Of a DNA stretch of 64,000 nt, positions 289 to 28,090 are shown piece by piece; position 1 is the first letter of the stretch, and every line of letters starts with the position of its first letter. The stretch is from an uncultured Pseudomonadota bacterium (GTDB taxonomy: Bacteria; Pseudomonadota; Alphaproteobacteria; RF32; CAG-239). Where the stretch lies: NCBI GenBank assembly GCA_902785935.1, contig CADAAN010000006.1:4309-68308 (forward strand). The letters run 5' to 3'. The notes below the pieces were generated by a model. It had not been told where the DNA came from, made no database searches, and saw nothing but the letters and a program-made list of their open reading frames with translations. Made by a program: the position numbers and the translations under genes.

Positions 289-1476
289 ATGGTAATGAAA
301 AAAATATACTATACAGGAAAAGGTGGGGCTTTTAGGCTTTTTGTGGCAGAAAACAAAACTGACATCTGTGTTGTCGATTTTAAAAATGCATTAACAAAGA
401 CAGAACAAATTTTTATTGAAGAATATGCCTCTAAAATAGGATTAAGAAATAATTTACGACCTTTCCAAAATTTAAATGGTGTATATCAACAGGAGTGGTA
501 CAAAATCACAAAGCATTTTCTTAAACATGTTTCTCAAAATGGCGGACAAATTTCAGATATATGCGGCGATATACTAACTTTAAATGACCTCTCAAAAGCA
601 TATTTTGCTACAAAAAAAATACAAAATAAGCTTTGTTTTTATAAAATTGTACAGAAAATAAACCCAGACTATTTATTACCAAATTGGAAAATTAATAAGC
701 TAGAAAATCAAAAAAATGAATATCCACTCATTATCAAATCCTGTCAAGGAAAGGGCGGTAAAGGAAATATCGTATGCTATTCTGATTCTGATTTTGATCA
801 GTGTCATAAAATTTTAAATTCCAAGCTGTTTGCAAAAAAGCAAGAAAATGGACAATACAATACCTCAAACAAAATAATCATTGAAAAATTTTATCCCAAT
901 GCGGTCAGCTATAATTGTAGCTTTTACTGCACAAAGCAAGGAAAAATAAAATTTCAAAAGATATCACAACAAATAATTGAGGAAGTATTTTATAGAGGAA
1001 ACATTTATCCACCCCTGTTAACAAAATCACAACAGGAAGATGTTACGGAAATCAGTGAGAAAATTTGTCATATTTGCCATTCAGATTATGGATATGTTGG
1101 TTGGTTGGGTTTAGATTTTATTTTGCTTAATGATAAAATGCATATCATAGAAGCAAACCCCCGTGTCAATAGTGTTACACATGCGCATAAATTCTCCAAA
1201 GGCAATCCTTTTCTTATCAGGCTGATGCGGCATAAAGCGATGCAATTAACGGAGATTTTTGATAAATTCATTCTTAACCCTGTTACCGGATATGGAATAG
1301 TTCCTTACCAAATACCTGATAATGAAAATGTTCTTCTCCTCTCTGCAAATTCCACTTTAGAAAAAGCAGAGAATGAATTGAAAAGATTTGCTCAAGCAAA
1401 TGGACTAGAAAATGTCACTCAAGAAAATATTCTATCATTTTCTAAATCTGTTTCTTATTATTATACAAAGCTATAA
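289..1476 (+). CDS. ATP-grasp domain protein (function unknown)
   Basis: Motifs PLIIKSCQGKGGKGNIV and GLDFILLNDKMHIIEANPRVNS resemble the ATP-grasp fold (RimK/carboxylate-amine ligase type). Confidence 0.45.
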   Translation: MVMKKIYYTGKGGAFRLFVAENKTDICVVDFKNALTKTEQIFIEEYASKIGLRNNLRPFQNLNGVYQQEWYKITKHFLKHVSQNGGQISDICGDILTLNDLSKAYFATKKIQNKLCFYKIVQKINPDYLLPNWKINKLENQKNEYPLIIKSCQGKGGKGNIVCYSDSDFDQCHKILNSKLFAKKQENGQYNTSNKIIIEKFYPNAVSYNCSFYCTKQGKIKFQKISQQIIEEVFYRGNIYPPLLTKSQQEDVTEISEKICHICHSDYGYVGWLGLDFILLNDKMHIIEANPRVNSVTHAHKFSKGNPFLIRLMRHKAMQLTEIFDKFILNPVTGYGIVPYQIPDNENVLLLSANSTLEKAENELKRFAQANGLENVTQENILSFSKSVSYYYTKL

Positions 1477-2155
1477 TAATTTCTGAAATACTTTGCTTAA
1501 CAATCGGATTTACATACTTTTTCTTCTGTCCGTTCATAAGAATTGTATTTTGTAACTCTTGATATAGGTTTTTGGAATTTATACCTAAAGTATTTGAAAT
1601 TTTTTCACTCCAGATATTAAGGGGCATTTCTCTGGTGAGGTGTAAATCAATATGTTCCCGTATAAAACGTGGATTTAAAAGCTTGTTTTTAATATGTTGT
1701 GTATAGAAAGTTATCCTCTTCTTACGATTTTCTTCGTCAAAATATTTTTTAAACTGCCGAGGAAGTTCTTGAACTTCTTCAGCATACTTTCCTTTGAATG
1801 ATAATAAAATATTCTTAAATTCAATTTTAGGATACGATTGAGATATTTGAGAAATCATCTCTATTTCATCAGTTCCGTTAATACAAAAAGCATATAGACT
1901 ATCTGAGATAATAAAATTTTCAACATCTTTCTTGCGAATTCCATAAGTTACTTCTTTATTGTACAAAAACAACTGATCAGGATGAAGTGATTGTTCATGA
2001 ACAATATATCTTTCCTCGTCATCTGATCGAATAGGCCGACTCGTTACTTGCGGAATAATAAAAATATTTGGATCTGACACACTTATTGCTTTTAAAAGTG
2101 TGCTCTTTCCGACACAGGACGTTCCCGTAATGGATATAAAGTACTTTTTATCCAT
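1442..2155 (-). CDS. P-loop kinase, guanylate-kinase-like
   Basis: Walker A ITGTSCVGKSTLLKAI followed by IPQVTSRPIRSDDEERYIV (GK-like TTRxxR region). Overlaps the NUDIX gene by 8 nt, consistent with an operon. Confidence 0.4.
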   Translation of the reverse strand: MDKKYFISITGTSCVGKSTLLKAISVSDPNIFIIPQVTSRPIRSDDEERYIVHEQSLHPDQLFLYNKEVTYGIRKKDVENFIISDSLYAFCINGTDEIEMISQISQSYPKIEFKNILLSFKGKYAEEVQELPRQFKKYFDEENRKKRITFYTQHIKNKLLNPRFIREHIDLHLTREMPLNIWSEKISNTLGINSKNLYQELQNTILMNGQKKKYVNPIVKQSISEIIIALYNNKKQI

Positions 2156-2576
2156 GGGCTTTTACACTAATTATCACAAAAGGAGTTGCATTGCATGACG
2201 TTAAGTCTTGTTTAAGAATCCATAATGCACCATTTGAATCTAAATCTGAAATATTTATATTCGGCTCTCCTTGTACTTGACAATCAAAAAGTATACCGGT
2301 ATGAATTAAACAGCCTGGCCTTCCATCATCTTCTGTAAAGTCCTCAAATCGTACAATTTCTTCTTTACGCGAGGTACAATCGACAAGTTTACAGCCTGTT
2401 TCTTCCATAATTTCTCGTCTTAATGTTTCAAGTTCCGTTTCTCCTTCTTCTGGAGATCCTCCCGGTAAATCATACATCCCAGTATAAGGCCCTCTTTTTT
2501 TTCTAATAAGTAATACCTTATTATTTTTTTCAATATACCCATATATTCCCTTATGTGTTCTAGTTATTTCTCTCAC
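2148..2576 (-). CDS. NUDIX hydrolase
   Basis: Nudix box GGSPEEGETELETLRREIMEETG (GX5EX7REUXEEXGU). Confidence 0.75.
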   Translation of the reverse strand: MREITRTHKGIYGYIEKNNKVLLIRKKRGPYTGMYDLPGGSPEEGETELETLRREIMEETGCKLVDCTSRKEEIVRFEDFTEDDGRPGCLIHTGILFDCQVQGEPNINISDLDSNGALWILKQDLTSCNATPFVIISVKAHG

Positions 2577-3546
2577 TATTTATCTCCTTTAAACGAAAAT
2601 TTACATTGCTGATTAGGTGATTAAGAGTCGTTATAAAAAATTTATGTAAAACAATTTCAGTAAATTTATGCATTTCATAACAATAATATTCTGTAGATAA
2701 AGCCATCTCAAATCCCTTATAACAAGCCAACACGTTTATTATATCATATTTTTTTTGGAAGTCATCTGTTTTATTTAATATTTGATAATGCTTTTTTAAT
2801 ATTTTTTTTTCTAACACTATGTCTGGTTGATCTGTATATTTTAAAAGCAGGTCAATTAAATCGTACAATTGGTAGTTATATCGAATAGAATCAAAATCCA
2901 AAAATTTATATTTATCTTTGCAAATCAAAATATTTTGAGGATTACAATCCCCATGAATGATGCCATAATTCCAACTATTTTTAACGATATAAGGCATTGT
3001 AACGGTTTCTAATAGCTTCAATTTATCATATATTATGGAATAAGATTTGTATCTGTTGTCTATAACAAGGCAGTTTTTAACATTAGACGTCCAGTAGTGC
3101 TGAATACGTTTTTGGCTATTTTGAATTTCTTTTTTTAGATTTAATATGCGTTTTCCCTGATAACCAGACATATGAAAATCTTGCATCAATTGTAAGTTTT
3201 TAATAAAATTTTCCGAAATCTGCCCTTGGGCTTTTTTATATAATATTACAGGTTTTGATGCAAACTGACTTATGGCGTCATTAAATTTGTTCAGATTCAA
3301 TTCAATACAGTAAAATTTTTTATATTGATTAAACAGCTTCAAAGATTTTTGTAAAAATTTTCTTGTTTTGGTTTCGTAAATTTTCATAATATACTGTTGA
3401 TTAATTTCCAACACAGTATTGTCCATTGCATTATTATAAATTTTTATCTCGCACGGTATAATATTATATTCTGATACCAAAAATTCAGATATATCGTTCA
3501 CTTTATAACTTGTAAAATTTCCATAATTATTACTGTTTAAAAACAT
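2560..3546 (-). CDS. Aminoglycoside/choline-kinase-like phosphotransferase (APH fold)
   Basis: Catalytic loop IIHGDCNPQNILI and downstream DFD motif. The start is uncertain: the ORF extends to 3657, and 3546 (MFLNSNN...) avoids a long overlap with the upstream GT gene. Confidence 0.5.
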   Translation of the reverse strand: MFLNSNNYGNFTSYKVNDISEFLVSEYNIIPCEIKIYNNAMDNTVLEINQQYIMKIYETKTRKFLQKSLKLFNQYKKFYCIELNLNKFNDAISQFASKPVILYKKAQGQISENFIKNLQLMQDFHMSGYQGKRILNLKKEIQNSQKRIQHYWTSNVKNCLVIDNRYKSYSIIYDKLKLLETVTMPYIVKNSWNYGIIHGDCNPQNILICKDKYKFLDFDSIRYNYQLYDLIDLLLKYTDQPDIVLEKKILKKHYQILNKTDDFQKKYDIINVLACYKGFEMALSTEYYCYEMHKFTEIVLHKFFITTLNHLISNVNFRLKEINSERNN

Positions 3547-4768
3547 AGGTGTTTTCCATTTGTTGTAAAATATCTGATAGTTTATACTTATCTTTAATAC
3601 CTTGTGCAATATGTACATTTGGTTCTGACAAACTTTTTTGTACAGCATAGACACCATTTTCTACGATTTCTGTGTCTGTATGACCATCGAATGGTATACC
3701 TAAATACTGTTCATTCATACACATTATCTCAGGACAGCCTCCACGAAAAAGATAAACGATATTTTTTCCGCTTAGACATGCTTCTATAAGTGCCCCTGGA
3801 AAGTTATCGTGCCTATATGTAAACAAAAAGGTATCGCACGCACTATATATAAATTTCAAATCCCCATAATTAAAATAACCGCATATATGGATATTGGAAC
3901 TATATTGTTTTGAAATCATCGCATTAAGTGCTTTTAATGAATATTTCTGGTTTAATGTCAATGAATTTCCATTTATTTCATAATGACCAAAAAAATAAAA
4001 ATGAACATTCTTATTTTTTGAAATAATTTTTTTTGCTATTTTAATAGCCAAATCAGTTCCTTTTCTGTATTCTAGGCTTCCAATAACGAATATATTTGTA
4101 TCTTTTTCATTTATTTTGTGATTTTTTATGTGTTGATTATAAAATGCGCAGGCCTTTTTTCTTGATATCAAAGAAGTATCTTCAAAATGATTGTTAATAA
4201 AGTTGGGTATAATGCATACAGGAATCGATGCTATTTCTTTTATAAGATTTCTGGTAAAATTATATACGTAATTAGTAGGTGCAGAAAGTATATCTGAATA
4301 TATAAGCTCTTTATGCTCTCTCTGAATTTGTAACTGTTCTTCTGCTGAAAAAGTTGGATGTAATTGTTTTGTTAATTCCAATATACTATGTAGTCTCGTT
4401 ATTTTTAAAACGTTAGTATTGTGTACATGACTGTATAGATTTGATAATATGCCCTCCCAATCCGGAGCTTCAATAATTAGTTTGTTGTGCGGGTTTGAAG
4501 TAACTAGTTTTACTATTTTTTCTGCTGCATGTTCAATTTTGAGAATTAGATTAGGTTTAGGTATGTAAAGTATACGGCAATTTCCTTCCCTAACCGAAAT
4601 AAAACGATTTGTTGGAGATTCAGTCAGCCATATCATATGCACATTTGGCCTGTTTTGTTGGAAAGCTTGATATAAAAGCCCTAAATATGTACCTATACCG
4701 CCTTTAACAAGAAGTCTGTGATCCTCAGTCGATACGATTAAATAAAATAAGCTAGATAAATTGTTCAT
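3530..4768 (-). CDS. Glycosyltransferase family 1 (GT4-like)
   Basis: N-terminal GGIGTY motif; C-terminal NFPGALIEACLSGKNIV typical of the GT1 EX7E region; GGAG ribosome binding site upstream. Confidence 0.55.
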   Translation of the reverse strand: MNNLSSLFYLIVSTEDHRLLVKGGIGTYLGLLYQAFQQNRPNVHMIWLTESPTNRFISVREGNCRILYIPKPNLILKIEHAAEKIVKLVTSNPHNKLIIEAPDWEGILSNLYSHVHNTNVLKITRLHSILELTKQLHPTFSAEEQLQIQREHKELIYSDILSAPTNYVYNFTRNLIKEIASIPVCIIPNFINNHFEDTSLISRKKACAFYNQHIKNHKINEKDTNIFVIGSLEYRKGTDLAIKIAKKIISKNKNVHFYFFGHYEINGNSLTLNQKYSLKALNAMISKQYSSNIHICGYFNYGDLKFIYSACDTFLFTYRHDNFPGALIEACLSGKNIVYLFRGGCPEIMCMNEQYLGIPFDGHTDTEIVENGVYAVQKSLSEPNVHIAQGIKDKYKLSDILQQMENTYVFKQ

Positions 4769-4880
4769 TTAATTCTCCAATCTTAATATGAAGATTAACT
4801 AATTCATATAAGAAAACAATTTTTTATTGACATTTATCCCGAAAATTGTATACGTTATTCTCCAAATAATGGAGATATTA

Positions 4881-6206
4881 ATGACTTTTTCATGTGGAAT
4901 TGACTTTGGAACAACAAATACTGCAGCAGCTCTATCGACAAGTAAAACCGAACCTACACTTATTCATTTAGAAGGTGATAGCGTAATAATCCCTAGTGCA
5001 CTATTTATCGGTATAGATAAAAAGATATATTTTGGCAAACAGGCAATGCAGTTGTATATGAATGGTGAAAACGGCCGTTGTATGCGTAGTTTGAAACGTG
5101 TGCTAGGTACAGATTTAATGATGTCTGGTACATATTTTAATAATAACAAAATTTCCTTTTCCGAACTTTTAAGTTGCTTTTTGAAAAACATAAAAAATAA
5201 AATTGATCTAGCGGCTGAAGCAAATGTTGACAGTGTTGTCTTAGGTAGACCTGTCCATTTTCAAGATAATAATCCGAACAGTGATATGCGTGCTGAAAAT
5301 GAACTGAGGCAAATAGCACAAAAAGCCGGCTTTAAAAATATAGAATTTCAATACGAACCGATTGCGGCCGCGTTTGCTCATGAATCAAAAATTACCGAAG
5401 AAAGTTTGGCTTGTGTTATTGATATTGGTGGTGGTACTTCCGATTTTTCAATTATTAAAATCGGACAACCACTTATGTTAAAAGTTGATAGAACAGATGA
5501 TATCCTTTCAAGCGTCGGTATTCGTATAGGAGGTAATGATTTTGATAAAGATTTGTCTTTGAAAGCATTCATGCCGGTATTTGGTTATCAAACACTACAA
5601 GGTGGACAAACACCTTACGATAAAGTCATGACTTTACCCACAATACCATTCAGAACAATGGCAGAATGGAGTTCTATCAACTCAATGTACACATATAAAG
5701 AACTTAATTTTGCAAAAAAAATGTTATTCAATGCTCAAGAAAAAGAAAAACTTCAGCGTTTTGTAGAATTAATTGAAAAGCAAAAAGGGTATTCCCTATT
5801 AAATACGGTTGAAAAAACAAAAATAAAATTAACTGAACAGTGCAAAATAAACGTACCATTGAATTTTATTTCTGATAAACCAGTTGTTCCTGTGTCAAGA
5901 CAAAATCTTAATGAATCTATAGAATTAGATGTCGCCCGTATTTTTAAGAAAGTAGATGAATGCTTTAGTCAAGCCGGCATCAAACCTGATGATATACAAT
6001 ATGTTATTTTGACTGGTGGTTCTACAGAAATCCCTTTAATTCAGAATATTGTTTCTCGTTATTTTCCGAATGCCGTTTTATCTCAAGACAACAAATTCTC
6101 TAGCGTAAGTATAGGTTTAACATACGACGGCATGCGAAGATTTTCAAAAAGAGAATCTTCTAAAGGATGTATGGTAGGTTCTCATACAGGATATTTAGGA
6201 CGATAG
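4881..6206 (+). CDS. Hsp70-family ATPase (non-canonical DnaK-like; HscC/YegD-like)
   Basis: GIDFGTTNTAAA phosphate-1 motif, DIGGGTSDFSII phosphate-2 motif, ILTGGSTEIPLIQ adenosine motif; GGAG ribosome binding site before ATG 4881. Divergent from the GT operon. Confidence 0.75.
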   Translation: MTFSCGIDFGTTNTAAALSTSKTEPTLIHLEGDSVIIPSALFIGIDKKIYFGKQAMQLYMNGENGRCMRSLKRVLGTDLMMSGTYFNNNKISFSELLSCFLKNIKNKIDLAAEANVDSVVLGRPVHFQDNNPNSDMRAENELRQIAQKAGFKNIEFQYEPIAAAFAHESKITEESLACVIDIGGGTSDFSIIKIGQPLMLKVDRTDDILSSVGIRIGGNDFDKDLSLKAFMPVFGYQTLQGGQTPYDKVMTLPTIPFRTMAEWSSINSMYTYKELNFAKKMLFNAQEKEKLQRFVELIEKQKGYSLLNTVEKTKIKLTEQCKINVPLNFISDKPVVPVSRQNLNESIELDVARIFKKVDECFSQAGIKPDDIQYVILTGGSTEIPLIQNIVSRYFPNAVLSQDNKFSSVSIGLTYDGMRRFSKRESSKGCMVGSHTGYLGR

Positions 6207-7164: not shown

Positions 7165-7542
7165 TTACAAATCTAACACCTGTTTTAAGAGGTTAATTTG
7201 ATTTACAAATTTTTCTGGATTACTTTGTTGCAATCTTATCAAATTTTCTATTTTCCATCTAACACCGGAGAGTCTACCTACATTTGGTATAGTTGTGTTT
7301 TTCCATGCTTCATCCAATGAAAAGAAATCTATCAAAAATTGTTTATCATCGGGTGTTAAAGCTGATTTTACTTTGGAAACAAGTGTGTCAAAAGTGTTAT
7401 TGCAATCTTCCATGGTGAAGCTTTCATCACTCATTCCCTGAAACTCTTGTTCAAACTTTGTAGAAATATTTTGTTTATTTGGGGCTAATAATTCATGTGG
7501 AGGGCGATTATGTTGCAACAAACTTACATATTGTTCAATCAT
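7165..7542 (-). CDS. Hypothetical protein (island gene)
   Basis: ORF of 125 aa, start/stop-coupled to the upstream gene; no recognisable motif. Confidence 0.35.
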   Translation of the reverse strand: MIEQYVSLLQHNRPPHELLAPNKQNISTKFEQEFQGMSDESFTMEDCNNTFDTLVSKVKSALTPDDKQFLIDFFSLDEAWKNTTIPNVGRLSGVRWKIENLIRLQQSNPEKFVNQINLLKQVLDL

Positions 7543-8303
7543 TAGATTTCTCCAAAGTCTTCTATAACGATATTATATTTCTTATCTAATTTTCCGTTTT
7601 TGGTGATGATGCGCTTACCGGAACCTATGTTTATTTTATCTACTTGGATTTCAGTAAACCACGAATGATTTATTTTTTCTGCCATATAAAGGAATAAACG
7701 CTTTACTTTCACGGAAGAACAGTTTTCCAATAATTCTTGCATGAGTTTCGGACGAAGATTCACCAAAAGTTCAAGTGTTTGAAATGTTTCTTTCAAAGAT
7801 ATTATATTTGGAGCTAAATACAGCATTTCTAATATAGCTCGTTCCGGTGTTGAAACTTGCACAGAAAAGACATCGTGGACATCAGTTATTCCTAGCTCAG
7901 CAGGTAGAAAATCAGATTTTACCCACTGATACCTCTTGTTTTTAAAATATTCTACAAACCATTTTGGTTGCAAAACCTTATTACTGCTGAAAAGAAACCA
8001 TTGAAAGCCCTCTAATTGCACAAAATGGTTAAATCCGTGAAGCATAAGTGCACTTTTAGCTCCAAAATGAACATCCGAACCTAATTGCTTTTGCAAGGCA
8101 TAAACTGCTCCTCTTATGGTTGGTGTATCACCATATCTTGAAAACGCTCCGGTTCCTATTGATTGCAACCATTCGTTATTTTTATAGTACTGTTGCAAAT
8201 CGTTAGATATACCTAAACTCTTTAGCCATACCGAAGTAACAACAGCTCCTTGAGGTATCTGTTGCAACATTTGGTTTAAATATGTTTTTCTTTTCGTAGT
8301 CAT
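7542..8303 (-). CDS. Hypothetical protein, possibly AbiEi-like (COG5340) winged-helix regulator
   Basis: N-terminal QQIPQGAVVTSVWLKSLGIS...GTGAFSRYG resembles the AbiEi antitoxin N-terminal domain; weak. Confidence 0.3.
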   Translation of the reverse strand: MTTKRKTYLNQMLQQIPQGAVVTSVWLKSLGISNDLQQYYKNNEWLQSIGTGAFSRYGDTPTIRGAVYALQKQLGSDVHFGAKSALMLHGFNHFVQLEGFQWFLFSSNKVLQPKWFVEYFKNKRYQWVKSDFLPAELGITDVHDVFSVQVSTPERAILEMLYLAPNIISLKETFQTLELLVNLRPKLMQELLENCSSVKVKRLFLYMAEKINHSWFTEIQVDKINIGSGKRIITKNGKLDKKYNIVIEDFGEI

Positions 8304-8394: not shown

Positions 8395-9552
8395 CTATTT
8401 TTTGCTGATTTGTATCATTTTGTTAATGGTATCGTTCAATTTATCGCGTAGGTGTTCAACACCCAAATTGACGTAAACTTGCGTGCTTTGCAGACTTTTG
8501 TGGGTTAAGGCTCGTTTTACCATAAAAGCATCAGCCCCGTTTGCTATCAGATATGTACCTAAGGTATGTCTAAGGTCGTGAATTCGGAAATTTGTTATAT
8601 TTGCCCTGCGCAATATAATTGCCCACGATTTTTTAATATCTACCACATGACCTGATTTTGAAGTCGGAGAATAGAATATCCAATCGCTTTGAGCCGATGA
8701 TTGTCTTTGATATAAAACCTTCATTGCTTCTTCAGCCAGAGCAATCGTTACATTCTCATCTGTTTTTGTTTGCGGAATTTTCCAAATCTTAGCAGACATA
8801 TCTATGTCTTCCCATTTCATTTCAAAAACATTTGATTTGCGAGCTCCGGTAAAGATAAGCATTAAAACAATGTCACGCACCAAATCATCTTCATAAGCGT
8901 AAACCGTTTCCATAAAGCGCTTGAGTTCATTATGCTCTAAATAACGCACACGGGCTTCAACTTTGTTTAATTTGACTGATAATGCAGGGTTCCGACCGTC
9001 AAAACGTTCTTCTTTGATTGCATAGTTGAACATTGTACTGATAAGCTTAATAAAATGATTTGCTATGTAATTGCCGTTTTTGACGGATATTTGCCGATGT
9101 AATTCGCGTAGCATATCGCCGGTTATTTCTTTTAGGTGTTTTCTGCCAAGTTTACACAGCTTTGAATTCCATATTCTTTTGTAATCTAATATTGTTTTTT
9201 GCGCAAGATATCTTTCTCTGTCTGTAATAAAATCATCGTATAACTGTTGCAATAGAGTATCTTGTTTATACTGACGCTTTGTAACGTTAGGGTTTTCTCC
9301 ATCATTCATTTTCTTGCGATTTGTAACGGCGGCAATTCTGGCTTCTTCTACAGTCATAGTCGGAGATTCGCCGAGTTTAACGCGAGTATCATGCCCGAGA
9401 ACTCTTTGTCGGATATAGAAACTTTTTGCCCCGTTCGGAGTTATTTGCAGCGACAGTTTAGGCTCTACCGTATCATAATAATAGGTTCTTTTCTTCGGTA
9501 TCGGTAAGTTTTTGATATTTGTGTTGGTAAACTTAAAATGATTAGCGTTCAT
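8395..9552 (-). CDS. int: Tyrosine recombinase / phage-type integrase
   Basis: C-terminal catalytic residues in the R...HDLRHTLGTYL...Y arrangement; N-terminal arm-binding region; adjacent to a tRNA-like att fragment. Confidence 0.9.
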   Translation of the reverse strand: MNANHFKFTNTNIKNLPIPKKRTYYYDTVEPKLSLQITPNGAKSFYIRQRVLGHDTRVKLGESPTMTVEEARIAAVTNRKKMNDGENPNVTKRQYKQDTLLQQLYDDFITDRERYLAQKTILDYKRIWNSKLCKLGRKHLKEITGDMLRELHRQISVKNGNYIANHFIKLISTMFNYAIKEERFDGRNPALSVKLNKVEARVRYLEHNELKRFMETVYAYEDDLVRDIVLMLIFTGARKSNVFEMKWEDIDMSAKIWKIPQTKTDENVTIALAEEAMKVLYQRQSSAQSDWIFYSPTSKSGHVVDIKKSWAIILRRANITNFRIHDLRHTLGTYLIANGADAFMVKRALTHKSLQSTQVYVNLGVEHLRDKLNDTINKMIQISKK

Positions 9553-9746
9553 AAGCCCCTCTGTCGTATAGTAATTGTTTTCCGGTGCCGCACTGGTGCC
9601 GCATATTTAAACAAATTTTATCCAATTTAATAAAACTTGTCAAGTAAAATTTTTAAAAATAATATAATAAAAACAAACACATAAATGCATTTTCATAAGA
9701 GATATGATTTTCTAAATAAAACATAATATCAATTACTCTTAATCAG

Positions 9747-9779
9747 TGGGTCCGGGGTTCGAGCCCCCGTGCGCGTACC
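9747..9779 (+). other. tRNA-like 3' half (T-arm plus acceptor 3' strand plus CCA) without a matching 5' half; att site of the island, possibly derived from a tRNA or tmRNA 3' end
   Basis: cgggg-ttcgagc-ccccg T-arm, tgcgcgt acceptor strand, discriminator a, cca. The upstream sequence is AT-rich and cannot form the D-arm or anticodon arm. Confidence 0.6.
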
Positions 9780-9781
9780 AA
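9763..9781 (+). repeat. att core direct repeat, copy 1 (cccccgtgcgcgtaccaat)
   Basis: 19-bp match (1 mismatch) with 9931..9949. Confidence 0.6.
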
Positions 9782-9785
9782 TAGA

Positions 9786-9810
9786 AGGCCGCCTTTCAGG
9801 CGGTTTTTTT
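9786..9810 (+). terminator. Rho-independent terminator directly after the tRNA-like CCA end
   Basis: ggccgcc tttca ggcggtttttttg. Confidence 0.55.
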
Positions 9811-9930
9811 GATTCTGCCAAGCCAAAGGAGCGAAGCCCGAAAAGGGGTTTGACTACAAGCAAAATGCGAGCGTAAGCGCGCCGATCGGCCCCAGCCGAT
9901 GAGCGCAGTGAACATAGCGAAGCGAAGTAG

Positions 9931-9949
9931 CCCCCATGCGCGTACCAAT
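9931..9949 (+). repeat. att core direct repeat, copy 2 (cccccatgcgcgtaccaat)
   Basis: Second copy, about 150 bp from copy 1, at the end of a GC-rich 150-bp segment. Confidence 0.55.
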
Positions 9950-9957
9950 TCTAAAAA

Positions 9958-9994
9958 AGCAACCCGCCGGCATAGCCTGCGGGTTGTTTTTTTT
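9958..9994. terminator. Bidirectional intrinsic terminator (serves aas on the minus strand)
   Basis: caacccgc ... gcgggttg 8-bp stem flanked by A-run and T-run. Confidence 0.6.
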
Positions 9995-9997
9995 GAC

Positions 9998-12169
9998 TTA
10001 TGCAGCTTTGGAAAGCTCTGATAAAACATCCTTTTTCAAGGTGACGTTATCAACCTTTCCGGTTGCGGACATCGGGATTTTATCCCGATAAATTATCTGG
10101 CGCGGCAGATAAAGCTCAGGATAGCCGTTTTGCTTGATAAATTCACGCAACATTTCGGTATTAAGCGTTTTTTCGTTGGTTACAACAACAATTTGCTCAC
10201 CTTTCTGTTCATGCGGTACGGCTACGACACCACAGCAAAAATCATCTCTACCGGAAAAAGCGCTGTTAATCATATTTTCAACCGCTTTTAATGAAATCAT
10301 CTCACCGCCGACCTTGGCAAAACGTTTGATACGGTCTTTGATCGTGATAAATCCGATTTCATCAATCTCAACAACATCACCTGTGTGATACCAACCGTTG
10401 TGCGGCGGTACCAAAACCCCCGGATTGTCGGCAAAAATATAACCCTTCATCACATTCGGCCCCTTGACCACAAGCTCACCGCCGCGTTCAATACCGTCTA
10501 CTTTTTCAAGACGACATTCCATTCCCGGACAGAGTTTGCCGATGGTGCCGAATTTATTAAATACCATGTTGTTGCCTGCAACAGCCGGAGAACATTCCGT
10601 CGTGCCATAGGCTTCCATCAGACGTGTGCCCAATCGCTCATTTAATAAATTGCGTGTATCAAGCTTGACGCCTTCTGCTCCCGCATAAACAAGCCTTAAT
10701 GACCCGAAATCAAGCGGATGCGAAATTTTGGCATAGCTTCTGAAGAATGTATCCGTACCAATCATCACTGTTGCACTTAATTCATAAAGCAAATCCGAAA
10801 TGACGCGAAAATGGAGCGGAGAGGGGTACAAAAAGACTTTTGCACCTTGATAAAGAGCATAAAGTGTGCCTAATACAAGCCCGAAACTGTGGAAAATCGG
10901 CATTGAATTTAAGACAATATCACGCTTGTTTAAGGTTTCAAAAGTCGCAATTTGCCATACGTTTGAAATCACGTTTTGATTTGACAATACAACGGCTTTC
11001 GGTGCACCTTCCGAGCCTGAGGTAAACAAAATAACGGCTGCATCGTCAGGGGTTGCTTTATATGGCACATATTTGACTTTGTATTGCAATAAGGCCAAAA
11101 TTTTTGCAAAAATCGAAACAGACCGTCCGACTTCTTCTAAAAAAATCACCTCAAATCCGGCATTTGTAATCGCTTCAGCCAGCGGTTCTAATCCCGCTTT
11201 TTTGATAAACATTTTTGATGTAATCACTTTTTTTGCCTGAACGGTTTTAAGCCCGCTTATTACATTCTGTGCACCGGCAGAAAAGTTAATCATGACAGGC
11301 ACTTGTCCATAGGCATTTAAGCCGAAAAATGTGCATATAGCCGCAACGGAATTCGGAAGCATCACGGCAACCGGCTCTTTCTTGTCCGAAATGAGAGAAA
11401 AATGACGCCCCAAAACATACGATGCAAGCATAATATCCTTAAAAGTTTTGGGTTTGCGCGTAATATCTTCCAAAACGTATGGACGACGCAGGCCAAAGCA
11501 TCTCTTTGCATGAATTTTTGAGGCTTTAATCAATTGTGTAAAGACCGTCATTTTTTTATCATAAATCGATTCAAACATTTGCTCACGCATAATCATGTAA
11601 ATTTCATTTGAAATGTGATTACGTTGATGCCTGAGCTCTGCCTTAAGCTTTAAGGGACGGGGTGCGTCAACAACAATTTTGACATGCGGAAAATAACGAT
11701 GCGGTAATTTTCCGCCTGTTTTTGAAAAATGGCAATACTGCAAGCCGTTAATCCAAATCGGTATGACGGGCGAATCCGTTTTATCGGCAAGAAGCCCCGC
11801 TGATTCATAAATCTTCATAATATTACCGTTGGTTGTCATACGTCCTTCCGGAAAAATGACGCAAAGGCGGCCGGAATTAACCGTTGAAATCAAATGCTTT
11901 AAGTCCGGTACGTCAATATTGTCATGTTTGACAACATCAGCCGTTTTTAAAAACAAACGTACCCAATAGTTGCGATAGAGTTGCCCGTGCAATGCAAAAA
12001 CCGGATTGCCGGGTAAAAACGCAAAAAGCACAATCGGATCAACCCATGATACGTGGTTTGAAATATATACGCCCTTTTTGGGAAGTTTATCAACGTCAAA
12101 ACGCATTTCAAAACGAACCTTAAAGGTCTTAAAAAAACATCTTAAAAGAAAGCGAACAATATCGCGCAT
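9998..12169 (-). CDS. aas: Bifunctional 2-acylglycerophosphoethanolamine acyltransferase / acyl-ACP synthetase
   Basis: N-terminal PlsC-type acyltransferase HxxxxD motif (NHVSWVDP); C-terminal AMP-binding motifs FTSGSEGAPKAVVLS and YGTTE; 723 aa. Confidence 0.85.
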   Translation of the reverse strand: MRDIVRFLLRCFFKTFKVRFEMRFDVDKLPKKGVYISNHVSWVDPIVLFAFLPGNPVFALHGQLYRNYWVRLFLKTADVVKHDNIDVPDLKHLISTVNSGRLCVIFPEGRMTTNGNIMKIYESAGLLADKTDSPVIPIWINGLQYCHFSKTGGKLPHRYFPHVKIVVDAPRPLKLKAELRHQRNHISNEIYMIMREQMFESIYDKKMTVFTQLIKASKIHAKRCFGLRRPYVLEDITRKPKTFKDIMLASYVLGRHFSLISDKKEPVAVMLPNSVAAICTFFGLNAYGQVPVMINFSAGAQNVISGLKTVQAKKVITSKMFIKKAGLEPLAEAITNAGFEVIFLEEVGRSVSIFAKILALLQYKVKYVPYKATPDDAAVILFTSGSEGAPKAVVLSNQNVISNVWQIATFETLNKRDIVLNSMPIFHSFGLVLGTLYALYQGAKVFLYPSPLHFRVISDLLYELSATVMIGTDTFFRSYAKISHPLDFGSLRLVYAGAEGVKLDTRNLLNERLGTRLMEAYGTTECSPAVAGNNMVFNKFGTIGKLCPGMECRLEKVDGIERGGELVVKGPNVMKGYIFADNPGVLVPPHNGWYHTGDVVEIDEIGFITIKDRIKRFAKVGGEMISLKAVENMINSAFSGRDDFCCGVVAVPHEQKGEQIVVVTNEKTLNTEMLREFIKQNGYPELYLPRQIIYRDKIPMSATGKVDNVTLKKDVLSELSKAA

Positions 12170-16265: not shown

Positions 16266-17324
16266 ATGAAGAAATATGTTTGGGTTTTTGGACTTATTTT
16301 AAGTTATAATGCACAAGCTTATGATTATAATGATTGTTTTGGTGCAAGCGGATGTCAGCCCTGTCCGAATAGTACGGACGGCAAATGTTTTTATGCTGTT
16401 GAAGGCAGCAAAATGACAATTTATGGCCCGACATCAACCGAACAAAATGCAGATGGCAGCTTAAAAGAAACAACATCGATTCCGCGTTATGCCTTTACCA
16501 ACAGCGATAATGCCAGCAATTTGCCGGAAAATATCACTTCTCTTGAAATAACAGGTAATATCACAACCGTTGAAGGTTATGCTTTTTGCTCTGCCCCTCT
16601 GACAAATGTACAATTTCCTGAGACACTTGAAACAATATCGGAATTGGCTTTTTGGAACAATAATTTATCACAAATCAATTTTCCTAATTCGCTTAAAAAT
16701 ATAGAAGAAGGTGCTTTTAATTGGAATCCATTTTCAGAAATTAATTTACCCGACGGATTAATGACGCTGGAGGGGTTAACAGGTGTTCCCCTGGGGCATG
16801 TTGTTATTCCGGATTCGATTGCAGAGGTTAAAGATGCGATTTTTTCTTCAAACTATCGTTTGCAATCATTGGTTGTCGGCGCAGACACAATGCTTGGCAA
16901 TATTTTTACCTACACAACAGGGGCTGTTAGTGTGCAATTTGATAAATTCAAGATGTTTTGCGCAGAAAATAACGGCTCATGCACAACAGCTTTGCAAAGT
17001 GCCGGTGCAACACAAGAACAAATTGCGCAAATACTGATAAGTTATACAAAAGATGACGCAACAGGCGTTTATCAAACAAGTGACGGAAAATATTATGCCG
17101 ATGTCAATTTGATGGCAAGACAAATGGCTTGCGAAAATAAGCAAAGCTGTGAAATTGCCAGTGCTGATATTCGGGCAGGTCGTCCTTTTGATATGAAAGG
17201 AAAATCTTACGCATCTGTCGATGATTTCATTCAAGGAAAATATATTCCAAAGCGTATCTATACCATCGATGAAGCCAATCATGTCGCGGGCAAGACAAAC
17301 ACTTTTACGATTCGGTATCGATAG
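16266..17324 (+). CDS. Secreted BspA-type leucine-rich-repeat protein, paralog 1, with the family-specific conserved C-terminal domain
   Basis: Signal peptide MKKYVWVFGLILSYNAQA; repeated LxxIxxxAFxxC/N units; C-terminus PKRIYTIDEANHVAGKTNTFTIRYR shared by 5 paralogs. Confidence 0.7.
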   Translation: MKKYVWVFGLILSYNAQAYDYNDCFGASGCQPCPNSTDGKCFYAVEGSKMTIYGPTSTEQNADGSLKETTSIPRYAFTNSDNASNLPENITSLEITGNITTVEGYAFCSAPLTNVQFPETLETISELAFWNNNLSQINFPNSLKNIEEGAFNWNPFSEINLPDGLMTLEGLTGVPLGHVVIPDSIAEVKDAIFSSNYRLQSLVVGADTMLGNIFTYTTGAVSVQFDKFKMFCAENNGSCTTALQSAGATQEQIAQILISYTKDDATGVYQTSDGKYYADVNLMARQMACENKQSCEIASADIRAGRPFDMKGKSYASVDDFIQGKYIPKRIYTIDEANHVAGKTNTFTIRYR

Positions 17325-17353
17325 AAAAAAATACATTATGAGCTTAAAACTTT

Positions 17354-17827
17354 TTAAAAAAACGGATTATAAGCCCATTGAAGCAGAGCTTGTCTTTGTT
17401 TTTTTCGGCAATCCAAGTCATACATCTGACAGTTCAAAAAAACTTGAGCTTTATGTCTTTTGAAAGCCTTCCAACGCTTGATTTGCAATTTATCAATTTC
17501 ATCAATACGGCGTCCCATATAATAGCGACAATACCACTGAAACCAACCGCGCGGATCAGGACCGATAATCCAACCGCGTTTTTGCCATTCTTGCAGGCTC
17601 ATACGTGATTTAACCCTAAAATAATTACACTCAACACACGGTTTTTCTTTGCTCAAAGGAGCATTTGTAAACCAATTTAAAGGAAATTCTTTGATGCAAT
17701 CATTTAAATAATGTCCCTCAAACACGCCGAGTTTAAGCATTTCATACGGAGTGAGCTCCGGGACAAAATCAGGTGCAAAGTCTTGTCCTTGCGGGGCGGC
17801 ATATGTATAGTGATAGCCTTTTTGCAT
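17354..17827 (-). CDS. Hypothetical cysteine/tryptophan-rich protein
   Basis: Conserved-looking GWFQWYCRYYMGRR segment; start set at MQKGYHY because the longer ORF runs into the gapR terminator. Confidence 0.35.
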   Translation of the reverse strand: MQKGYHYTYAAPQGQDFAPDFVPELTPYEMLKLGVFEGHYLNDCIKEFPLNWFTNAPLSKEKPCVECNYFRVKSRMSLQEWQKRGWIIGPDPRGWFQWYCRYYMGRRIDEIDKLQIKRWKAFKRHKAQVFLNCQMYDLDCRKKQRQALLQWAYNPFF

Positions 17828-17944
17828 TTTATCTGAAACAACAATCATCAAGCAAAGATAATGGCGCATATTCGTTTTTTCAATAAATGCGATATAAAAA
17901 AAAGCCCCGCAAAATGCGGAGCATATCAATTTTATCAAATCAAA

Positions 17945-18187
17945 TTACATATCAAGTGCTTTTCGATATGTATCAATCAAAAATTCCTGCTCATCGCGAG
18001 AGGCAGCGTCCATCTTGCGCAATTTTAAGATGGCGCGCATAATTTTGACATCAAATCCGGCACTTTTTGCCTCAGCAAAAACCTCACGGATATCTGTTGA
18101 GATTTCTTTTTTATCTTCTTCCAATTTTTCAATTCTTTCGATAAGCGAACGCAATCTGTCGCTTGCAATACCACCGACTTCGGCCAT
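17945..18187 (-). CDS. gapR: GapR-like nucleoid-associated protein (DUF2312)
   Basis: 80 aa with LRSLIERIEKLEEDKKEISTDIREVFAEAKSAGFDVKIMRAIL...YRKALDM, close to the alphaproteobacterial GapR pattern; terminator downstream. Confidence 0.7.
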   Translation of the reverse strand: MAEVGGIASDRLRSLIERIEKLEEDKKEISTDIREVFAEAKSAGFDVKIMRAILKLRKMDAASRDEQEFLIDTYRKALDM

Positions 18188-18404
18188 TTTTTTCCTCCGT
18201 ATAAAATATGGTTAAACTTTTTTTCTGAGCTATGAGATAACAAAAAAAACAAAGTTTGACAAGAGATATTTTTGAATTTTTTTTTGTTTGATTGAGCTTT
18301 GAAGCATTTAAAACCAAAAATTATACCCCGCCCGTCAAATTTTGCTTGACGGGTTGTTTCTTTTTTTATACAAACCGATATATAGATAACAACGGAGAAA
18401 TATT

Positions 18405-27838: not shown

Positions 27839-28090
27839 TGTTGATAAGAAAAGTACTAAAAAATAAGGAAAAAATGCATTTTTATACAAAAAATAAACAA
27901 AAAAATAAAATTTTTTGCATTTTTTGCTTGTTTTTCGATTCAAAATGTGATACATTGACAACATAAAAGTACCATAAGTTATGTTTATAAGAATTAATAA
28001 CTATTGTGAACGGGTTGAAGATTTTTTTGAAGTCTTGCCTGCGTTGTACTTTTGAAATTTGAAAAATTAATCATCAAATATTTTACAATT

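What the first reader, a model, noticed from the sequence alone, without database searches (positions are those of the whole stretch)
9747..9994. Island boundary: tRNA-like 3' half with CCA, duplicated 19-bp att core, and a GC-rich 150-bp spacer whose identity (tmRNA/tRNA remnant?) is unresolved
9747-9779 has a T-arm (cgggg-ttcgagc-ccccg), acceptor 3' strand and CCA, but no upstream 5' half. The 19-mer cccccRtgcgcgtaccaat recurs at 9931-9949. Each copy is followed by a strong terminator. The DNA between them (9790-9930) is about 55% GC in a 35% GC genome. This fits successive integrations into the 3' end of a tRNA or tmRNA gene. A tandem array of att remnants, or part of a permuted two-piece alphaproteobacterial ssrA, are both possible. 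I could not find a convincing tag reading frame.
Basis: seen in the sequence. Interest (0 to 1): 0.55.

Follow-up and report, generated by a model that had tools for sequence, protein, structure and literature searches.

The report
tRNA-Lys island junction with repeat unit
This is the right-hand junction of a defence-gene island inserted into a lysine tRNA gene. Next to it lies an older 167-bp repeat unit that copies the tRNA's last 19 bases. It is an ordinary kind of feature and not a tmRNA, but the small unit is better conserved than neutral DNA.

Summary
Window 9735-9780 is the 3' 46 nt (A31-A76, anticodon loop to CCA) of tRNA-Lys(CTT). Intact genes ending in exactly this sequence occur in related rumen alphaproteobacterial genomes. 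It is the displaced tRNA end (attR) of a low-GC island of at least 20 kb, which carries a P4-type integrase, AbiE remnants and a Shango defence system.

The second copy (9929-9949, A58-CCA+AT) closes a ~167-bp unit: a native-type tRNA terminator (T1) plus a 118-bp, 56% GC spacer ("S"). Two related contigs with no island at the site carry this unit directly after an intact tRNA-Lys, as a tandem array of two copies or more. Other relatives have the virgin site.

ARAGORN and Rfam find no tmRNA, and the acceptor stem lacks G3:U70, so the tmRNA/permuted-ssrA reading is rejected. "Successive events at a tRNA 3' end" is supported.

S has no Rfam match, no promoter-like site, no folding signal and no conserved ORF. 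It is nevertheless 77% identical between genomes whose neutral sites are ~52% identical, which points to selection or recent transfer.

The closest analogue is the E. coli tyrT/tyrV 178-bp distal repeats (RttR). Their repeated segment also starts at A58. The island's left end and the intact tRNA in this genome were not reached.

The parts
8395..9552 (-). Tyrosine integrase of the island (385 aa), P4-type domain layout, transcribed away from the tRNA fragment
   Evidence: Pfam Arm-DNA-bind_3, Phage_int_M and Phage_integrase. It is the last gene of the 32% GC island.
9584..9603 (+). Two direct GGTGCCGCA repeats 11 bp apart. Candidate arm-type integrase-binding sites in the island-side arm of attR (inferred).
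   Evidence: the repeat finder family D1. A similar 26-nt element with two GGTGCC half-sites lies just downstream of the intact tRNA-Lys in the islands of L055 and L071.
9735..9782 (+). 3' fragment of tRNA-Lys(CTT): A31-A76 (9735-9780) plus the shared AT. This is the displaced tRNA end, the attR core of the large island.
   Evidence: Exact match to intact tRNA-Lys(ctt) genes in L009-L015, L039, L049, L051-55 and L072. No 5' half in the window.
9762..9782 (+). First copy of the 21-nt direct repeat (A58-A76 + AT), lying inside the tRNA fragment
9787..9810 (+). Terminator T1 (GCCGCC-TTTCA-GGCGG + T7), of the same type as the native tRNA-Lys terminator of relatives
   Evidence: Sequence and fold. 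Homologous GCCGCC/GGCGG terminators follow tRNA-Lys in L011, L012, L014, L039, L049 and L072.
9811..9928 (+). Spacer S: 118 bp, 56% GC, non-coding, origin unknown. Together with T1 and core 2 it forms the ~167-bp unit.
   Evidence: Homologous to the tandem units after tRNA-Lys in L015/L049: 76-77% identity, BLAST E=3e-17, nhmmer E=2e-28. No Rfam family, no promoter-like site, folding z-score -0.4.
9845..9853 (+). GGGGTTTGA inside S. It resembles the 5' strand of the T-stem plus the start of the T-loop (GGGGTTCGA) and lies within the 20-nt block that is invariant between species.
   Evidence: the repeat finder family D2. Invariant block AAAAGGGGTTTGACTACAAG. RNAalifold pairs it with GTAGCCCC at core 2, but the pairs never vary.
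9879..9906 (+). Imperfect inverted repeat GCGCCGATCGGC/GCCGATGAGCGC inside S
   Evidence: the repeat finder pair I4. L049 has GUCGC-UUUA-GCGAU at the same place, with one two-sided change (G-C to C-G) seen by eye in the alignment. RNAalifold did not confirm a conserved structure.
9929..9949 (+). Second copy of the 21-nt repeat (A58-A76 + AT; G65 changed to A). It is the distal boundary of the unit.
9953..9994 (.). Terminator T2, a long hairpin flanked by an A-run and a T-run. It probably also terminates the convergent acyltransferase/acyl-ACP-synthetase-type gene (9998-12169, minus strand).
   Evidence: Fold, inverted repeat I1, ORF and Pfam.

Best explanation
Window 9735-9994 is the right junction of a genomic island inserted into a tRNA-Lys(CTT) gene, followed by an older small insert at the same gene.

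Step 1 (shown by comparison). The virgin site in this clade is tRNA-Lys(CTT) followed by a GCCGCC/GGCGG terminator.

Step 2 (structure shown, mechanism inferred). A ~148-bp insert, made of a terminator T1 and a GC-rich spacer S, came to lie between two copies of the tRNA's last 19 nt (A58-A76) plus AT. The repeat starts inside the T-loop. That is where one class of tyrosine integrases crosses over, so the unit is most likely the stripped-down remnant of an integrative element. It would have kept both att ends but lost its genes, like a cis-mobilizable element (CIME). Unequal crossing-over, or re-integration, between the repeated cores then changes the copy number: one copy here, two or more in relatives.

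Step 3 (shown for the island family by comparison, inferred for this copy). An island of at least 20 kb and 32% GC, carrying a P4-type integrase, recombined with the tRNA gene at the anticodon-loop sublocation. The island would supply a new A31-A76 to the intact gene at its far (left) end. The original A31-A76, with the unit attached, was displaced to 9735-9949.

The fragment itself is non-functional DNA. T1 and T2 are ordinary terminators. S has no demonstrated function.
For: tRNA identity:
- The exact 25-mer finds 7 intact tRNA-Lys(ctt) genes in rumen alphaproteobacterial MAGs.
- The alignment fixes the identity block at A31-A76.

Virgin sites:
- L039, L051-54, L057, L059, L060 and L072 have tRNA-Lys followed directly by the terminator.

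The unit without an island:
- L049 has tRNA-Lys, then two units, then the native terminator and flank. L015 has at least 2.3 units.

Island and integrase:
- GC drops to 32% left of 9735, and the last island gene is the integrase.
- The island continues at least 20 kb to the left, with the defence genes SngA (Shango) and AbiEi/AbiEii and the start of an HsdM-like gene.

Anticodon-loop crossover:
- The fragments in L008 and in the window both start at A31.
- In L071/L075 the intact tRNA next to an island carries an island-type T-arm (CAGGG/CCCTG) downstream of the anticodon loop and is still called tRNA-Lys.
- Several contigs break right after the anticodon loop or at CCA.

Literature:
- Anticodon-loop, T-loop and 3'-end sublocations are described in bioRxiv 10.1101/2020.11.02.365908.
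- The CIME/accretion scenario, including an example at a tRNA-Lys gene, is in PMC5704250.
Against: - The intact tRNA-Lys at the island's left end was not found. There is no tRNA in the 20 kb inspected.
- The usual GapR-tRNA-Lys synteny is broken in this genome, so the locus has been rearranged.
- No full-length donor element carrying S was found in phage, plasmid, IMG/VR or JGI metagenome collections.
- A 167-bp circle is very small for integrase-mediated recombination.
- S is 77% identical between genomes whose third codon positions and intergenic DNA are ~52-53% identical. A dead, vertically inherited remnant would not show this.
- The integrase gene lies next to the displaced fragment, not next to the intact tRNA as in the E. 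coli P4-type islands I recall (own knowledge).
Confidence: 0.72

Rival explanations
1. The region is part of a tmRNA gene, either a standard ssrA 3' end or a permuted two-piece alphaproteobacterial ssrA. The T-arm/CCA piece would be the acceptor piece and the GC-rich spacer the coding piece.
For: The organism is an alphaproteobacterium: it has GapR/PF10073, and the related MAGs are titled as such. The gene order, with the T-arm/CCA piece first and GC-rich RNA-like DNA after it, superficially resembles a permuted ssrA.
Against: - ARAGORN, whose description covers tmRNA genes with their tag peptides, finds none.
- No tmRNA family appears in Rfam, even at E<=10 on 9550-10050.
- The piece is identical to the 3' part of bona fide tRNA-Lys(CTT) genes.
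- The acceptor strand TGCGCGT gives G3:C70 instead of the G3:U70 alanine identity pair.
- A strong terminator sits between the two supposed pieces.
- There is no conserved reading frame. The alignment with L049 has 1- and 2-nt indels, and by my reading of the sequence the L049 frame stops early.
Confidence: 0.01
2. S, with core 2 and a terminator, is a small RNA gene or a processed 3' trailer RNA of the tRNA-Lys operon, analogous to E. coli RttR. It would be kept by selection, and the tRNA-like 3' tail would serve as a processing or stability signal.
For: - S is far better conserved than neutral DNA between two species: 77% against ~52%.
- Conservation is blocky, with 20-nt and 15-nt invariant blocks. 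One hairpin keeps pairing through a two-sided change.
- Each S+core is followed by a terminator.
- In E. coli the analogous 178-bp unit is annotated as the sRNA RttR.
Against: - No promoter-like site on the + strand within or before S.
- A strong intrinsic terminator separates S from the tRNA.
- Folding energy is no better than shuffled sequence on either strand: z from -1.2 to +0.1.
- RNAalifold finds almost no covariation: none on the + strand and one pair on the minus strand, from only 2 independent sequences.
- No Rfam family. RtT is absent, and the BjrC1505 hit of 26.9 bits is well below its gathering score of 50 and includes the terminator hairpin.
- Close relatives lack the unit altogether.
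Confidence: 0.12
3. The unit arose without any integrase. A local duplication of the tRNA 3' end plus terminator (slippage or illegitimate recombination) trapped or acquired a piece of unrelated GC-rich DNA. Homologous unequal crossing-over then amplified it.
For: - The unit's terminator T1 is of the same type as the native tRNA-Lys terminator, as expected if core+terminator was duplicated locally.
- Array copy number varies: 0, 1, 2 or at least 2.3.
- No donor element was found.
Against: - The repeat starts at A58 in the T-loop, a canonical integrase sublocation. The E. coli tyrT repeat starts at the same position, which is hard to explain by random slippage.
- The 56% GC of S is foreign to a 40% GC genome.
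- The unit is shared by two species at above-neutral identity.
Confidence: 0.12

Closest known systems
Genomic islands and prophages integrated in tRNA genes by tyrosine integrases, with anticodon-loop and T-loop sublocations (Williams 2002 recalled from memory; summarised in bioRxiv 10.1101/2020.11.02.365908)
   Same: - A P4-type integrase with an arm-binding domain sits at the island edge.
- There is a direct repeat of the tRNA 3' part.
- One identity block runs from the anticodon loop to CCA (46 nt) and a second from the T-loop to CCA (19 nt + 2).
- The island has low GC and carries defence cargo.
   Different: - The integrase gene lies next to the displaced fragment and diverges from it, rather than lying next to the intact tRNA.
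- The intact tRNA end was not observed.
- The host locus is rearranged relative to its relatives.
Cis-mobilizable elements (CIMEs) and tandem accretion at tRNA genes, for example the ICE/IME/CIME composites at tRNA-Lys in Streptococcus agalactiae (PMC5704250)
   Same: - A gene-less segment is bounded by att-type direct repeats of the tRNA 3' end.
- It sits in tandem with a larger integrase-bearing element at the same tRNA. The order implies the small element came first and the island second.
   Different: - The unit is only ~148 bp between the repeats, much smaller than the CIMEs I recall.
- It forms head-to-tail arrays.
- Its att sublocation (T-loop) differs from that of the neighbouring island (anticodon loop), so this island's integrase probably cannot mobilise it.
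- Mobility was not shown.
E. coli tyrT/tyrV distal 178-bp repeats encoding RttR (rtT RNA) and tpr
   Same: - Checked here on NC_000913.3. The last 19 nt of tRNA-Tyr (A58-A76) recur three times at 178-bp spacing downstream of tyrV.
- Here the last 19 nt of tRNA-Lys (A58-A76) recur at 167-bp spacing, tandemly in L049/L015.
- The tRNA sublocation and repeat length are the same, and the period is similar.
   Different: - No sequence or Rfam similarity: RtT does not appear at E<=10.
- Each unit here begins with a strong intrinsic terminator. As I recall, the E. coli units are co-transcribed and end at a Rho-dependent site.
- There is no conserved small ORF like tpr.
- No expression data exist.

Membership tests
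tmRNA (standard or two-piece/permuted ssrA) | Detected by tmRNA-specific models (ARAGORN; the Rfam tmRNA families) | tested here: not met
   ARAGORN finds no tmRNA in the window. Rfam shows none at gathering score or at E<=10 on 9550-10050.
tmRNA (standard or two-piece/permuted ssrA) | Alanine-accepting tRNA-like domain with G3:U70, and a tag reading frame | tested here: not met
   The acceptor 3' strand TGCGCGT-A-CCA places C at position 70. No conserved ORF: the alignment has 1- and 2-nt indels and, by my reading of the sequence, the L049 frame stops early.
tRNA gene fragment as att site of an integrated island (attR) | Sequence identical to the 3' part of a real tRNA gene, with the 5' part absent | tested here: met
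   9735-9780 equals A31-A76 of tRNA-Lys(ctt) in more than 10 related loci. The 5' half is absent from the window.
tRNA gene fragment as att site of an integrated island (attR) | Adjacent island with a tyrosine integrase and atypical composition; relatives with an empty site | tested here: met
   Integrase at 8395-9552. GC is 32% in the island against 40% outside. Empty sites in L039, L051-54 and L072.
tRNA gene fragment as att site of an integrated island (attR) | Matching direct repeat and intact tRNA at the other island end in the same genome | tested here: inconclusive
   The 20 kb to the left (L004, L047) holds no tRNA and no repeat. The remaining ~14 kb of the contig could not be fetched (look-ups exhausted).
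Cis-mobilizable element (CIME) | Bounded by attL/attR-type direct repeats at an integrase target site, with no integrase or transfer genes | tested here: met
   21-nt repeats at 9762 and 9929. There are 146 bp between them (9783-9928), with no conserved ORF.
Cis-mobilizable element (CIME) | Derived from a larger integrative element, and excisable or mobilisable by a cognate integrase | not testable with these tools
   No donor element was found. Excision needs an experiment or read-level data.
RtT RNA (Rfam RF00391) / tyrT distal repeat | Match to the RtT covariance model | tested here: not met
   Not among the matches at E<=10 in the window region or in the L049 array.
RtT RNA (Rfam RF00391) / tyrT distal repeat | Tandem ~170-180-bp units after a tRNA gene, each ending in the tRNA's last 19 nt | tested here: met
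   L049/L015 arrays have a period of 167 bp. The window holds one unit. The E. coli reference was verified.

The most novel reading that the evidence does not exclude
The ~167-bp unit (terminator + S + the A58-CCA core) is not debris. It may be a self-contained element that is either kept by selection or still spreading between species. One possibility is a cargo-less integrative mini-element consisting essentially of an attP. Another is an RttR-like tRNA-trailer RNA. Together with the E. coli tyrT 178-bp repeats, it would then define a recurrent class of 'A58-to-CCA tRNA-distal repeat units'.
Probability: 0.2. Interest if true: 0.55.

Novelty: new member of a known kind. Interest (0 to 1): 0.3.

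Why it matters
The main value is for annotation. The work fixes the island boundary and names the target gene as tRNA-Lys(CTT), a recurrent integration site in this group of rumen alphaproteobacteria. It separates two integration sublocations within one tRNA, and it removes a false tmRNA lead.

The one point of wider interest is the 167-bp unit. It mirrors the unexplained tyrT distal repeats of E. coli: same start at A58, same 19 nt, similar period. It is also conserved above the neutral level. If such units prove to be a general, selected or mobile class, they would give a handle on how those repeats arise and what they do.

Tried and rejected
- **tmRNA or permuted ssrA:** rejected.
- **S as a protein-coding segment:** rejected. 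The 77-aa minus-strand ORF at 9796-10029 and the short plus-strand frames are not conserved, because the alignment with L049 has 1- and 2-nt indels.
- **S as a degenerate tRNA:** ARAGORN calls nothing there, and by eye no 5' acceptor strand (pattern RYGYGYR) is present.
- **S as a dispersed repeat or MITE:** no other copy in the window or in 662 kb of related loci, by BLAST and nhmmer.
- **S in phages, plasmids, IMG/VR or JGI metagenomes:** only chance 16-20-nt matches. No viral contig carries the core.
- **Relatives of the integrase in IMG/VR:** none found.
- **Resemblance of GTAAGCGCGCC in S to the RSF1010 oriT nick region as I recall it:** not conserved in L049, so treated as coincidence.
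- **Weak Rfam hit to BjrC1505 on the minus strand of L049:** 26.9 bits against a gathering score of 50, includes the terminator hairpin, and is absent from the window copy. Rejected.
- **Reaching the island's left end:** failed. The cluster representative of the helicase lies on a different 6-kb contig, which added only ~0.7 kb, ending in an HsdM-like start.
- **Aas homologues for synteny:** synteny downstream of that gene is not conserved, so no island-free version of exactly this junction was obtained.

Full report
**1. What is in the sequence**

The stretch reads as follows:
- 9735-9780: ACTCTTAATCAGTGGGTCCGGGGTTCGAGCCCCCGTGCGCGTACCA, followed by AT.
- 9787-9810: a GCCGCC-TTTCA-GGCGG hairpin with seven T (T1).
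- 9811-9928: 118 bp of GC-rich DNA (S).
- 9929-9949: AGCCCCCATGCGCGTACCAAT.
- 9953-9994: a long hairpin with eight T (T2).
- 9998: the stop codon of a convergent 723-aa gene.

The repeat is really 21 nt, and the copies are 167 bp apart. S is 55-56% GC. The island to the left is 32% and the rest of the window 40%, not 35%. Folding confirms both terminator hairpins.

**2. It is tRNA-Lys(CTT), not tmRNA**

- ARAGORN and Rfam find only tRNA-Trp and tRNA-Leu elsewhere in the window. They find no tmRNA, even at E<=10 on 9550-10050.
- A scan of 185,579 species genomes with the 25-mer GGTTCGAGCCCCCGTGCGCGTACCA gave 8 loci, all rumen or gut alphaproteobacterial MAGs. In 7 of them the match is the 3' end of an intact tRNA-Lys(ctt).
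- The alignment shows that window identity begins at A31, the last base before the anticodon loop, and runs to A76. The fragment is therefore 46 nt, not only the T-arm.
- The 5' half is nowhere in the window.
- The acceptor strand gives G3:C70, which is incompatible with the alanine identity pair of tmRNA.

**3. The island**

Left of 9735 the GC content is ~30-33%. The last gene (8395-9552, minus strand) is a tyrosine integrase with Arm-DNA-bind_3, Phage_int_M and Phage_integrase domains.

The same DNA lies on an 89-kb ENA contig, which extended the view 9.7 kb further left. A near-identical contig added 0.7 kb more. The cargo comprises:
- AbiEi with a truncated AbiEii;
- an Hsp70-like protein, a glycosyltransferase, kinase-like/NUDIX/ATP-grasp genes and an ankyrin-repeat protein;
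- a TerB protein that matches Shango SngA, followed by an ATPase and a helicase;
- a DnaJ-domain protein and the start of what reads as an HsdM-like gene.

The helicase's nearest relatives, at 81-82% identity, are named as coming from Clostridium sp. CAG:967 and Candidatus Gastranaerophilales. No tRNA and no further copy of the repeat occurs in these 20 kb. The left end was not reached.

**4. Comparative states of the site**

Homologues of the 80-aa GapR protein served as handles to sample the locus in relatives.
- **Virgin sites.** GapR, tRNA-Lys, a GCCGCC/GGCGG terminator and then the flank occur in L039, L051-54, L057, L059, L060 and L072. L011, L012 and L014 likewise have tRNA-Lys followed directly by that terminator.
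- **Other islands at the same tRNA.**
  - L055 and L071/L075 carry different island DNA directly after an intact tRNA-Lys.
  - In L071/L075 the tRNA's T-arm is CAGGG-TTCGAAT-CCCTG instead of CGGGG-TTCGAGC-CCCCG, and it is still called tRNA-Lys. The part downstream of the anticodon loop is therefore supplied by the island.
  - That is the signature of crossover at the anticodon-loop sublocation.
  - L008 has a fragment that also starts at A31.
  - Several assemblies break right after the anticodon loop or at CCA, as expected at a polymorphic hot spot.
- **A shared flank motif.** A 26-nt element with two GGTGCC half-sites 11 bp apart lies at window 9584-9603. It also occurs in the L055/L071 island flanks. 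These are plausibly arm-type integrase sites; this is an inference.

**5. The 167-bp unit**

In L049, which carries the same GapR as L015, the intact tRNA-Lys is followed by two head-to-tail units and then the native terminator and flank. Each unit is a core, a T1-type terminator and S. L015 breaks inside the array after at least 2.3 units. The unit therefore exists without the island and lies on the chromosomal side of the window's fragment. It pre-dates the island insertion, which is the order expected for tandem accretion.

Evidence against a defined function for S:
- No Rfam family.
- No plus-strand promoter-like site.
- Folding energies indistinguishable from shuffles on both strands, z from -1.2 to +0.1.
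- No conserved ORF, because of indels.
- No other copy in 662 kb of related loci.
- No match in phage, plasmid, IMG/VR or JGI metagenome collections.

Evidence that S is not plain debris:
- S is 76-77% identical between the window and L049. Third codon positions of the neighbouring gene are 53% identical, and the adjacent intergenic region is 52%.
- S is therefore either under selection or was exchanged after the species split.
- L039, a close relative of L049, lacks the unit entirely.
- Conservation is blocky. There is a 20-nt invariant block, AAAAGGGGTTTGACTACAAG, which contains a T-stem/T-loop-like GGGGTTTGA.
- One hairpin keeps pairing through a two-sided change. With only two independent sequences this is not a statistical test.

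**6. Closest known parallel**

In E. coli K-12 the last 19 nt of tRNA-Tyr (A58-A76) recur three times at 178-bp spacing downstream of tyrV. That region is annotated as the sRNA RttR and the small gene tpr. Here the last 19 nt of tRNA-Lys (A58-A76), plus AT, recur every 167 bp.

The shared start at A58, inside the T-loop, fits the T-loop integrase sublocation. This is why I favour a site-specific recombination origin followed by unequal crossing-over. There is no sequence or covariance-model similarity to RtT. Unlike what I recall for E. coli, every unit here starts with an intrinsic terminator.

**7. Verdict**

The tRNA-integration reading is supported, and the tmRNA/permuted-ssrA reading is rejected. 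The feature is a new instance of a well-known kind: a tRNA-targeted island junction with an accreted mini-remnant.

Two things remain open. The first is the location of the intact tRNA-Lys in this rearranged genome, where GapR at 17945-18187 is no longer followed by the tRNA. The second is why S is conserved above the neutral level.

Noticed in passing
window 7165-8303 (- strand): AbiEi antitoxin gene (253 aa) followed by a 125-aa ORF. The ORF matches only the C-terminal ~115 residues of the 290-residue AbiEii profile, so this is apparently a truncated AbiE toxin-antitoxin pair.
   Followed up: partly
L004 950-6476 (9.7-3.2 kb left of window position 1): A TerB-domain protein that matches Shango SngA, followed by a BrxC/BrxD-type ATPase and an Lhr-like helicase. 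This is a probable Shango defence system within the same island. The helicase's closest homologues (81-82%) are named as from Clostridium sp. CAG:967 and Gastranaerophilales, which suggests transfer of the cargo between phyla.
   Followed up: partly
window 289-6206: A cluster of ATP-grasp, NUDIX, APH/TCAD9 kinase-like, glycosyltransferase and Hsp70-like genes inside the island. PADLOC gives only weak hits to candidate systems (PDC-M61B, PDC-S07).
   Followed up: no
window 9584-9603; L055 3483-3501; L071 ~2980-3000: The direct repeats GGTGCCGCA-N2-GGTGCCGCA lie between the integrase gene and the tRNA fragment. A similar pair lies on the other side of the tRNA core in two other islands at the same tRNA. 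These are candidate arm-type sites.
   Followed up: partly
window 17200-18250 (- strand): In L015, L039, L049, L051-55 and L072 the GapR gene is followed by tRNA-Lys(CTT). In this genome it is followed by an unrelated 164-aa ORF, and the tRNA remnant lies 8 kb away next to a different gene. The locus has been rearranged, possibly exactly at core 2.
   Followed up: partly
tRNA-Lys(CTT) in L009-L015, L039, L049: The acceptor stem GCGTGTA/TGCGCGT contains three wobble pairs (G1-U72, U4-G69, U6-G67). These are conserved in all intact copies. The 3' strand GUGCGCGUAC is self-complementary if G-U pairs are allowed, which is why the two cores pair with each other in the single-strand fold.
   Followed up: no
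L056, L058, L076-L080 (contig ends): Several independent assemblies end inside tRNA-Lys right after the anticodon loop, or exactly at CCA. This fits population-level variation at both integration sublocations.
   Followed up: no
L008 2815-4042: A second example of an A31-A76 tRNA-Lys fragment. Here it lies between a phage-like region that reads as an NrdD-like C-terminus and a convergent 346-aa ORF that reads as an integrase. This suggests two elements in tandem at this tRNA in a goat-rumen MAG.
   Followed up: partly
window 28001-29000: A 1-kb stretch at 52% GC in a ~40% GC background. It was seen only in the composition profile.
   Followed up: no
L048 (E. coli NC_000913.3 1286700-1287560): The 19-nt tRNA-Tyr tail also occurs once between tyrT and tyrV, 175 bp after the tyrT copy. 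The tyrT-tyrV spacer is therefore itself one such unit.
   Followed up: no
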